Assembly (NCBI GenBank): GCA_000002445.1
Contig: CH464491.1
Span: forward strand, 5,088,001 to 5,152,000
DNA: 64,000 nt
Source of the DNA: Trypanosoma brucei
Taxonomy: Eukaryota
Reading direction: 5' to 3'
In this document: piece after piece, positions 46,301 to 49,300 of the stretch
Numbering within the stretch: the first letter of the stretch is position 1
Layout: the number at the start of each line of letters is the position of its first letter
Program-made: the position numbers

Positions 46301-49300
46301 GCTTGTTGCTTTCAAGTGTTTGAAGGCCTAGCGCTAGGTTTTTTAGCGGGGGTATCCAGGTTAGTTGTTCTACTATAGGCTGTGCCTTGCTTGCGAAGCC
46401 GCTGAACTCTAAGCATACGCCTTGCGCTTTGTTGCCGTCACATTTCGAGCTTGCGAACTGTCCTAGGTATGCGTTGCTGGTGTCTTTGTGTATGAGGTCG
46501 TTGAGGTTAGCTATGGCGGCTAGTATTTCTGTGCCGGTTATTTGTCCTGCGTCAAACGGACATGATTTTGCTAGCTTGCCTAGGTTCGCTGCCGTTACCC
46601 CGGTCGCGAATGTGCTGGCGGCTTCCCAGGTGCCGCCGTCGGCCGCCTGTACGCAAACTGCTGGGTCTACATTGTTTGTGCCTCTAAAGCAGACGCATGT
46701 GAGGGCTTCCAGGGCTGTTGCCGGGTTGCCGTTGCCGCCTGCAGCTTTGCATACCGAGTCCCTTGTGCCTGTTGTTGTGCCTGTAAAAACCTTTGATGGG
46801 TCTGGGTTGCTTGCTGGCTTTGCATTTTCTCCGTATACGGCTGTTGCTATGGTTTCTTTTGCCGTGTTATCCTTGGGTGCGTCGGACGGTGGTTGTATGC
46901 TCTGCAATTCTTTCGCCAGCTCGTGCGCTCTTGTTCTAATGTGCTTTAAGTGATCCCGGGCTAGAGTTTCTTGGTCTTCGGTTAGTTCCATTATGCCCGC
47001 CTGGTTTTTTTGTCCCCCCGTCGTTGCTTCCAGTTTTTTGGCGGCGATCTTTGTCCACCGAGGCCAGTTTTCTTCAAACCCTCTGCCATCCTGGCCCGCT
47101 GATTTTGGGTTATCGTGCGTTTTCTTCGCAGCTTTGTCGCTGTAAAACATTTCTTGCCAAGATCCTGTTGCTGCTGAAAAATTTACCATGTGTATGTAGT
47201 CCAGGTCGTCTTCTGGCATAGCCGGTATGGTCGGTATCTCTACTTCGCGCGGTGCCATCGCCACGAATTTGCACAAAGCCGCGTGTTCCTGGCGGTTGGC
47301 TCCGCCCACAATGTCTGTCCCTTCTGTTTTCGTCACTAACCAAAGCACAATCGTCATTGGTAGCATTATTGCGTACATTTCAGCGGTCTCTGTGGTGAAA
47401 CCTTGTGTTGTTGACCTTTATTGTGTCCATATAATATGCAGATGTTGTTGTTAAAAAAATCAGCTTATCTTTGGGGTATACTTTGTCTTAAACAGAAAAG
47501 TAATTAGCGTGGTCACCTAGCCGTGCTCTCGACCCTTGGTTGTTAACAGCTACACTCGTGCCAAAACGCTGTTATTTCTTTTATTTTGACTTTATTTTGT
47601 GACGGTGCCGAGATCAGCGCTGGTAGTGTGCTCACCAACCACATGTACTCATCCTCAGCAATGTGGTGTAAAACAATAAGGTTAGGATTACTTTCTAAAA
47701 ATCTATCTAGTGGCCTTTGTAAATGCATGACATAACGACAATCTTGCATATACACTGTTAATAAACTTTCAAATTTCAATTTACTCCTTATAACATCTCC
47801 AACTATAATATCTTCATTAAGTGCTCTAAAATCGATATAGGTTTTGAAATCTCTGAATTTAATTGGTGACTTTATTAATTTTTTCAGTGCTTCATAATCA
47901 ACAATTGCCATAACTACATACCTAGATAAAGTGGACGCATAACCTATCGTGTGCCATGTAATTTCATCACTAAATTCTTTAGGATATCCAACAGCTCTCC
48001 CCATATTCAATTTTTCTCTTGGAAGCAGCTCTAGATATTTTAGATACAGTGGCACTCTCATAAAAATATCATCATCTGCTTTCATAATATAAGGATTAGT
48101 TGTTTTGAATATTTCAACTTCAAATTTGAATTACAAATATGTATTTCTACTCCTAGTGAGTTCTGCCTCCCAGCCCCAATTACCCGCATCTCCAACTTCT
48201 TTATCTGTTGTAGGGTTCACATCGCACACGGGTAAAATAATAACATCCTGATATAAATACCCTTCTTCTCCAAGAACTTCTCTTAGCTCACAATTGTTAT
48301 TTGTGTGAGGTGAAAGAGCATATATTACAAGAAACTTTCCAGTAAAATTATTTACCTTTCTCGCCACTTCGGGATAACTCCAACACGTGTCTCTCTGTAA
48401 ATTCCTTCTTCTGAACCTTTTATCATTATCTATCGAAGGTATTCCAACTACAACCAAATAATCTTCAGTTTTCCAAATCCTCCTAACATCTTGCGAAATA
48501 AATTTCATATACTTATCTTCAACAATATCTAGTGAAATGGATTCACCTTCATTGAACAAGCCATAGAGTGACACACACAAACTGATGCACATAAAAATAA
48601 AAGGTAAACAACATACTGCTGCATAGATACATCTTATATAATTCAGAAAGCACTATTACCATACTAACGGAAACTTTGAAATACTTACTAAATGATAAAA
48701 ACCTGAGAATATGAAGTCGTTTGCAGCACAAAGGTGTTTACATAAGTAATACCTTGATATACTTATGATATGGCTATTGAACGGTGTATGCTCAGTGCCT
48801 GCAGCTTACGGTTGAGCACGTGTGTACGGTTTCTTTTTCAGTCGTAAGATGCGGGCACATCTATGGAGTCACAACTACTTTCATTCCGCAGTTTTTTGTA
48901 TACATATTTCTATTCTATACGCTGTTATGTGAATTTTTGTAACCAGTTACACCGATGTGTACAAAGGATAGTAAGAATTTTACCAACATCCTGTGATAAC
49001 TACCCTATTCACCGTATTTCATTATCAAAATCTTTTCACCTTAGATAGATAAACTACAGTTACTACTATTTCTTCCACCATTTCTGCAGTTACATCAATC
49101 TGCTTTTTTGTAAAATGCGCGCATGATCGGTTTATCATGTATAACTTTCTTTTTCACTGGCCTCTTTCACATTCTTTTGATTCTCTGCTATGCTTTCCTT
49201 CATTTTTTGAATACTGCTCCCCTCGCTGCGGATAAGTTAGCGAGTTTATTTGGCTTATACACTGGACTATTTCCAACTATGATTGTCGACTCTGTCATCT

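What the first reader, a model, noticed from the sequence alone, without database searches (positions are those of the whole stretch)
47543..48592. GT31 glycosyltransferase gene embedded in the VSG array, disabled by a single in-frame TAA that is shared with its paralogue
Both copies (47543..48592 and 62222..63334) are one continuous reading frame of about 349 codons. Each is broken only by TAA after …EAELTRSRNTYL, and otherwise retains the GT31 catalytic motifs (RR..W, DDD). A shared single lesion with otherwise clean ORFs is unusual for pseudogenes. Either the stop predates the duplication, or it was copied by gene conversion, or it is tolerated. Bypass of the stop would be the most speculative reading.
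Basis: partly seen in the sequence, partly recalled or inferred. Interest (0 to 1): 0.6.

Follow-up and report, generated by a model that had tools for sequence, protein, structure and literature searches.

The report
Glycosyltransferase pseudogenes sharing a copied stop
Two decaying glycosyltransferase gene copies in a Trypanosoma brucei surface-antigen gene array carry the same premature stop because a 373-base patch holding it was recently copied from one to the other, which is ordinary for this recombination-prone part of the genome.

Summary
On the minus strand, copy A (47543..48646) and copy B (62222..63334) are each one frame of about 370 codons. Each is broken by one TAA after ...RSRNTYL, and neither has a frameshift.

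The window is T. brucei brucei TREU927 chromosome 11, in a VSG array. [quoted passage not shown] That family is CAZy GT67, which derives from beta-3-glycosyltransferases and is not GT31 proper.

All six related proteins that cover the stop column have Trp there, and a T. equiperdum relative has TGG in its DNA. The stop is therefore a real nonsense lesion, two G-to-A changes away from TGG.

A and B differ at 1 of 373 bases in a tract around the stop (A 47921..48293). They differ by about 19% in the flanking coding sequence (permutation p<1e-5). The flanks diverged under purifying selection (dS 0.57, omega 0.27), so the stop did not predate the split of the two copies. A recent gene conversion spread it.

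Copy A has a second lesion: its start codon is now CTG.

Subtelomeric GT67 genes, their pseudogenes and their concerted evolution are already described. This is an ordinary case and of low interest.

The parts
47543..48646 (-). Copy A: GT67 glycosyltransferase pseudogene. It spans 367 codons from the position homologous to the start codon. The two halves were deposited as hypothetical proteins Tb11.1830 and Tb11.1840.
   Evidence: Translation. 67% identity to P0001 in a single tblastn hit across the stop. Exact look-up of the two ORF halves.
48644..48646 (-). Lost start codon of copy A. It reads CTG where copy B, P0004 and the T. equiperdum copy have ATG.
   Evidence: DNA alignments and upstream translations.
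48131..48133 (-). In-frame TAA of copy A, at a column that is Trp (TGG) in relatives.
47921..48293 (-). Gene-conversion tract, copy A side. It is 373 bp with 1 mismatch to copy B (at 48086, synonymous). It contains the TAA, the WG motif and the YIMKADDD/DXD motif.
   Evidence: Mismatch map and permutation test, 0 of 100,000. dS is 0.013 in the tract against 0.565 in the flanks. The T. equiperdum copy is 22% divergent across the same tract.
48068..48076 (-). DDD (DXD) metal and nucleotide-sugar binding motif of copy A, intact but downstream of the stop.
62222..63334 (-). Copy B: GT67 glycosyltransferase pseudogene of 370 codons. Its ATG and N-terminal membrane anchor are intact. The two halves were deposited as hypothetical proteins Tb11.0730 and Tb11.0740.
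62819..62821 (-). In-frame TAA of copy B, at the same column as in copy A.
62609..62981 (-). Gene-conversion tract, copy B side. It is in ungapped register with copy A at an offset of +14688.
45798..47378 (-). Context: intact b-type VSG gene (XP_829789) 165 bp downstream of copy A.
60490..62010 (-). Context: intact b-type VSG gene (XP_829791) 212 bp downstream of copy B.
49459..49486 (-). Context: core of a 70-bp repeat upstream of copy A. It places the pseudogene between the 70-bp repeat and the VSG, inside the VSG cassette.

Best explanation
The window holds two old paralogues of the kinetoplastid GT67 (beta-3-glycosyltransferase-derived) family. They lie in the T. brucei TREU927 chromosome 11 VSG array, each directly upstream of a b-type VSG gene.

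The two copies diverged while still under purifying selection. One lineage then turned the conserved Trp codon (TGG, in the ...KTYLWFKF... segment just before the DXD motif) into TAA. A recent non-reciprocal recombination (gene conversion) of at least 373 bp copied that segment, stop included, into the other paralogue 14.7 kb away. Alternatively, both copies received it from an unsampled third copy.

Both are now dead genes. The truncated product would lack the DXD motif and the acceptor half of the GT-A fold. Copy A has since also lost its start codon.

What is shown: the lesions, the Trp/TGG state in relatives, the tract, and the selection signature of the flanks. What is inferred: the direction of transfer, the lack of expression, and the recombination mechanism.
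For: - Identity of the locus and family. The flanking VSGs and the four ORF halves are exact matches to TREU927 entries. The closest relatives are TREU927 UDP-Gal/UDP-GlcNAc-dependent glycosyltransferases at 65-72% identity.
- The stop column is Trp in P0001-P0005 and in P0013. It is TGG in the T. equiperdum locus L001.
- Copies A and B show 1 mismatch in 373 bp (48293..47921). The rest of the ungapped coding register shows 118 mismatches in 614 bp. The longest identical run is 207 bp, reached in 0 of 100,000 permutations.
- In the flanks dS is 0.565, dN is 0.153 and omega is 0.27 (Fisher p=2.7e-9). In the tract dS is 0.013.
- Neutral simulation of the flank divergence gives a mean of 3.6 new stops, with P(none)=0.0245. 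None is observed.
- The tract is not slow-evolving DNA. L001 differs from A and B by 22% inside the tract and by 17-23% outside it. Inside the tract every informative site but one groups A with B. The flanks give a three-way star.
- Decay is general in this subfamily. Copy A lost its ATG. L001 needs three reading frames. Tb11.1160 (P0012) is another half-ORF with a scrambled C-terminus.
- Published work already describes subtelomeric expansion and concerted evolution of these genes (PMC5853035) and their pseudogenes and strain variability (PMC4288722).
Against: - The direction of transfer and the donor are unknown. The rest of the TREU927 genome could not be searched, so both copies may have been converted by a third copy.
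- No expression data could be consulted, so 'dead gene' is inferred from sequence.
- The tract carries no more replacements at family-invariant positions than the flanks do: 4 of 61, against 4-7 of 38-48. The inactivated lineage therefore had little time to decay. The two-step TGG>TAA change may be one tandem mutation or two successive ones.
- PMC5853035 states that lineage 7 genes 'rarely recombine'. That sits slightly against frequent conversion, but it concerns annotated intact genes only.
Confidence: 0.85

Rival explanations
1. The TAA arose once, before copies A and B duplicated, and both inherited it vertically.
For: The stop is the same codon at the same column in both copies.
Against: Vertical inheritance would mean both copies evolved neutrally since the split. 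Instead the flanks show omega 0.27 at dS 0.57, with no further stops or indels, where P(no stop)=0.0245 under neutrality. It also fails to explain why only the 373 bp around the stop are 99.7% identical while the flanks are about 19% divergent. A rescued version, in which the flanks were later overwritten from intact paralogues, needs more events.
Confidence: 0.07
2. The stop is tolerated. Either it is read through, or the two halves act as a split enzyme, so the genes remain functional.
For: Copy B has no other lesion, and the GT67 motifs WG, YIMKADDD and EDIMIG are intact.
Against: - Copy A has lost its ATG, and with it most of its signal anchor.
- The context is UAA-U, with none of the readthrough-promoting contexts I know of (own knowledge).
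- T. brucei uses the standard code. Every long VSG ORF listed in the window closes at a standard stop codon.
- A literature search found no programmed readthrough reported for T. brucei genes of this kind.
- A downstream half starting at MKADDD would lack any ER/Golgi targeting signal (inference).
- Sister copies are plainly decayed.
- With only 1 difference in the tract, nothing can be said about selection since the conversion event.
Confidence: 0.02
3. The identical tract is an assembly artefact, produced by reads from one copy being placed in both.
For: VSG arrays are repetitive and hard to assemble (PMC4288722).
Against: The tract is short at 373 bp, well inside the length of a Sanger read, and it is joined on both sides to copy-specific sequence. 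It contains one genuine difference, at 48086. The two loci were deposited separately with their own gene models.
Confidence: 0.03
4. The same TGG>TAA change arose independently in the two copies.
For: None beyond the shared codon.
Against: It needs two identical double substitutions, and it leaves the 373-bp identity unexplained.
Confidence: 0.01

Closest known systems
[quoted passage not shown]
   Same: 65-72% protein identity to TREU927 members. Type II membrane-anchor N-terminus in copy B. WG, Y(I)xKxDDD and ED(I)(M)xG motifs as defined in PMC9472816. Subtelomeric or VSG-array location.
   Different: Both copies are pseudogenes, through a nonsense codon at a conserved Trp. Copy A also lacks its ATG and has EDIIVG in place of the canonical third motif. 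The lineage assignment is inferred only: the closest hit, P0002, lies on chromosome 4, where the lineage 7 genes Tb927.4.5260-5290 are located. No phylogeny was made.
CAZy GT31 / Pfam Galactosyl_T (PF01762) beta-3-glycosyltransferases of animals
   Same: A weak Pfam match over the segment that spans the stop and the DXD motif. The paralogues P0001-P0003 pass the Pfam cut-off. The T. brucei motifs are described as derived from the beta3GT motifs (PMC9472816).
   Different: The repaired A and B sequences score below the gathering threshold: 17.7 and 16.1 bits against 23. A profile of the subfamily finds no solved structure by sequence. CAZy files the kinetoplastid enzymes as a separate family, GT67.
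Segmental gene conversion and concerted evolution in T. brucei subtelomeric gene families (VSG mosaics, UGT paralogues)
   Same: A short non-reciprocal patch of near-identity lies between otherwise diverged paralogues in a VSG array. Concerted evolution of subtelomeric UGT paralogues is reported in PMC5853035.
   Different: Here the patch carries a disabling mutation, so conversion spread a defect instead of creating antigenic novelty. The event lies in a non-VSG passenger gene inside the VSG cassette.

Membership tests
T. brucei GT67 glycosyltransferases | Significant full-length sequence homology to annotated family members | tested here: met
   [quoted passage not shown] Hits are co-linear on both copies.
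T. brucei GT67 glycosyltransferases | Motifs WG, Y(I,V,F)xKxDDD and ED(A/V/I/L/M)(M/L)x(G/A) (PMC9472816) | tested here: met
   Both copies have WG at residue 157 and YIMKADDD at residue 186. Copy B has EDIMIG. Copy A has EDIIVG, which departs at one position.
T. brucei GT67 glycosyltransferases | Intact ORF encoding a type II membrane protein (a functional member) | tested here: not met
   In-frame TAA at the conserved Trp column in both copies. Copy A has also lost its ATG. These are pseudogene members, not functional ones.
T. brucei GT67 glycosyltransferases | Glycosyltransferase activity or expression | not testable with these tools
   No RNA-seq, ribosome profiling or proteomics data for these loci could be queried.
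GT31 / Pfam Galactosyl_T (PF01762) | Pfam score above the gathering cut-off (23 bits) | tested here: not met
   16.5 bits for A and no hit for B with X at the stop. 17.7 and 16.1 bits with the stop repaired to W. The paralogues P0001, P0002 and P0003 score 28.3, 30.1 and 23.6 bits, so the link holds only transitively.
GT31 / Pfam Galactosyl_T (PF01762) | GT-A fold related to solved beta3GT structures | tested here: inconclusive
   A sequence-profile search of the PDB found nothing at E<=1. No structure prediction or fold search was run.
Gene-conversion tract | A contiguous run of identity significantly longer than expected from the overall divergence of the pair | tested here: met
   373 bp with 1 mismatch, against about 19% divergence in the flanks. 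The longest exact run is 207 bp, reached in 0 of 100,000 permutations.
Gene-conversion tract | Phylogenetic incongruence between the tract and the flanks relative to a third sequence, with the tract not intrinsically conserved | tested here: met
   With T. equiperdum L001 as the third sequence, tract sites read A=B 83, A=T 1, B=T 0. The 5' flank reads 37/38/25 and the 3' flank 16/14/17. L001 is 22% divergent in the tract.
Gene-conversion tract | Identified donor and direction | not testable with these tools
   No T. brucei genome DNA other than this window was accessible. The look-up of encoding contigs failed for all TREU927 proteins tried.

The most novel reading that the evidence does not exclude
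Copy B has its ATG, membrane anchor, all three GT67 motifs and its C-terminus intact, and is interrupted only by UAA. On the most novel reading, it is still expressed because the UAA is read through at low level or under regulation. The nonsense codon would then act as an expression valve on a subtelomeric glycosyltransferase and not as a lethal lesion, and gene conversion would have spread it because it is tolerated.
Probability: 0.02. Interest if true: 0.6.

Novelty: already known. Interest (0 to 1): 0.12.

Why it matters
It matters little beyond annotation.

- The four 'hypothetical protein' entries (Tb11.0730, Tb11.0740, Tb11.1830, Tb11.1840) are halves of two GT67 pseudogenes.
- The pair is a clean small example of gene conversion spreading a disabling mutation between paralogues in a VSG array.
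- The divergence outside the tract accumulated under selection, which implies these array-embedded glycosyltransferases were functional until fairly recently.
- It is a caution that a lesion shared between paralogues in recombination-prone regions need not be old or tolerated.

Tried and rejected
**Searches that led nowhere**
- I tried to fetch the genomic DNA of the TREU927 paralogues and of the window's own VSG with the look-up of encoding contigs. None was on record, so neither the donor of the tract nor the TGG state in the TREU927 paralogues could be read at DNA level. Trp has a single codon, so TGG is implied.
- Only a T. equiperdum contig was retrievable.
- A PDB sequence-profile search to test the GT31 link gave no hits.
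- A literature search for stop-codon readthrough in T. brucei returned nothing relevant to this family.
- The ribosome-profiling paper that mentions the family lists only the intact gene Tb927.3.5660.

**Ideas considered and rejected**
- The central identity reflects strong purifying selection on the catalytic core. Rejected because synonymous sites are also identical (dS 0.013 against 0.57) and the T. equiperdum copy is 22% divergent there.
- The tract comes from a long-dead donor. Not supported, because replacements at family-invariant positions are no more frequent in the tract than in the flanks.
- A and B are part of a larger duplicated GT+VSG unit. Rejected because homology is confined to about 48810..47640 and the downstream VSGs are only 26% identical.

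Full report
**What is there**

On the minus strand, 47543..48592 (copy A) and 62222..63334 (copy B) each translate as one continuous frame with a single internal TAA after ...EAELTRSRNTYL. The stop codons are at 48133..48131 in A and 62821..62819 in B. tblastn with five T. brucei paralogues gives one co-linear hit across the stop in each copy. It shows no frameshifts and finds no other copies in the 64-kb window.

**Origin and context**

Exact-sequence look-up identifies the window as Trypanosoma brucei brucei TREU927 chromosome 11.
- The flanking ORFs 45798..47378 and 60490..62010 are the annotated VSGs XP_829789 and XP_829791.
- The four half-ORFs of the two copies are deposited as hypothetical proteins: Tb11.1830 and Tb11.1840 for copy A, Tb11.0730 and Tb11.0740 for copy B.

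Pfam confirms a minus-strand array of b-type VSG genes, with an ingi-like retroelement on the plus strand. Each glycosyltransferase copy lies directly upstream of a VSG, 165 bp away for A and 212 bp for B. Copy A lies between a 70-bp repeat core (49459..49486) and its VSG, so it is inside the VSG cassette.

**Family**

[quoted passage not shown] This kinetoplastid family is CAZy GT67. It derives from a beta3GT ancestor and has the motifs WG, Y(I,V,F)xKxDDD and ED(A/V/I/L/M)(M/L)x(G/A) (PMC9472816).

Both copies keep WG and YIMKADDD. Copy B has EDIMIG and copy A has EDIIVG.

The GT31-type Pfam domain Galactosyl_T is only a sub-threshold hit. With the stop repaired to Trp, the copies score 17.7 and 16.1 bits against a cut-off of 23. 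Three paralogues pass that cut-off. A PDB sequence-profile search found nothing. 'GT31' is therefore right at superfamily level only.

**The stop is a true nonsense lesion**

The column is Trp in the five TREU927 relatives P0001-P0005 (...KTYLWFKF...) and in a T. equiperdum protein, P0013. It is TGG in the DNA of a T. equiperdum pseudogene relative, L001. TGG>TAA needs two G>A changes.

**A second lesion in copy A**

The start codon conserved in copy B, in P0004 and in L001 is CTG in copy A (48646..48644). Stops lie just upstream of it. 'A single shared lesion' is true only of copy B.

**Why the stop is shared**

In ungapped register (offset 14688), A and B differ at 1 of 373 positions between 48293 and 47921. 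The single difference, at 48086, is synonymous. The remaining 614 coding positions hold 118 differences. The longest exact run is 207 bp, and none of 100,000 permutations of the mismatches reached that length. The stop lies in the middle of this tract.

The identity is not due to constraint.
- dS is 0.013 in the tract and 0.565 in the flanks.
- The T. equiperdum copy is 22% divergent from both A and B inside the tract, the same as in the flanks (17-23%).
- Informative sites group A with B 83:1:0 in the tract. The flanks give a three-way star, 37/38/25 on the 5' side and 16/14/17 on the 3' side.

This is the signature of a recent gene-conversion tract of at least 373 bp.

**Did the stop predate the duplication?**

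No. The flanks have dN 0.153, dS 0.565 and omega 0.27 (Fisher p=2.7e-9). They carry no further stops or indels. Neutral simulation of the same 117 substitutions gives a mean of 3.6 new stops, and only 2.45% of runs give none.

Most of the A-B divergence therefore accumulated while the genes were under purifying selection. The nonsense codon is young relative to the split and was spread by conversion. The direction, or a possible third donor, cannot be determined here. The tract carries no excess of replacements at family-invariant sites. The only other TREU927 relative seen, Tb11.1160 (P0012), is 93% identical in the tract and has a scrambled C-terminus. It is another pseudogene, not the donor.

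**Is the stop tolerated?**

Nothing supports that reading.
- Copy A lacks its ATG.
- Sister copies are frameshifted or truncated.
- The context is UAA-U (sequence).
- A C-terminal half starting at MKADDD would lack a targeting signal (inference).
- No literature on programmed readthrough for such genes was found.

Expression data could not be consulted.

**Comparison with what is known**

Three things are already published.
- Subtelomeric expansion of UGT/GT67 lineages 1 and 7 in T. brucei (PMC5853035).
- Concerted evolution of those paralogues (PMC5853035).
- The abundance of putative or pseudogene copies in hard-to-assemble subtelomeres that vary between strains (PMC4288722).

The specific 373-bp tract that carries the stop does not seem to be described, but it is an ordinary instance of known behaviour.

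**Verdict**

Novelty and interest are low.

Noticed in passing
window 60164..60267 and 45491..45562 (also 44815..44937): Two VSGs lie directly downstream of a glycosyltransferase pseudogene. Each is followed, 230-330 bp after its stop codon, by interstitial telomere-type repeats on the gene strand: (TTAGGG)n preceded by degenerate GTTAGG units. These are the only TTAGGG tracts in the 64 kb. This suggests that the GT-VSG units are relics of former chromosome ends. The T. equiperdum GT-VSG locus has no such tract.
   Followed up: partly
window 49459..49486, with other 70-bp repeat cores at 21266, 21347, 34027, 37486, 40162, 43584 and 43673 (all minus strand): Copy A lies between a single 70-bp repeat and its VSG. 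It would therefore be co-transferred with that VSG in a cassette-type gene conversion bounded by the 70-bp repeat. Whether the same holds for copy B cannot be seen, because the window ends at 64000.
   Followed up: partly
L001 9357..10540 and 10849..12240 (T. equiperdum CZPT02000575.1): A frameshifted relative of the same glycosyltransferase, needing three reading frames, also sits directly upstream of a b-type VSG. Its annotated protein TEOVI_000654800 is only the last ORF fragment. The GT-VSG_B adjacency recurs in three loci although the VSGs are unrelated.
   Followed up: partly
window 54860..57400 (+): An 846-codon ORF with reverse transcriptase and RNase H domains, probably an ingi-type retroelement. 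It lies on the strand opposite to the VSG array, between the two glycosyltransferase copies.
   Followed up: no
window 45798..47378 and 60490..62010: The two VSGs are only 26% identical overall, but they share a near-identical block in the C-terminal domain (...NTTNQTC.KANCKWEEK.GKGECKSKPG...). This could be a second local conversion or a conserved CTD type.
   Followed up: no
window 8117..9595, 15407..16621, 18050..19522, 31758..32990 (all minus strand): Four long minus-strand ORFs of 404-492 aa in the array gave no Pfam hit at E<=0.001, unlike the b-type VSGs around them. They may be a-type VSGs or degenerate copies. This was not examined.
   Followed up: no
not in window (Tb11.1160, CAJ17095, P0012): A third chromosome 11 copy of this glycosyltransferase subfamily is deposited as a 177-aa ORF that also starts at MKADDD. 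It therefore has a lesion somewhere upstream of that Met as well. Whether that lesion is the same TAA could not be checked without its DNA.
   Followed up: partly
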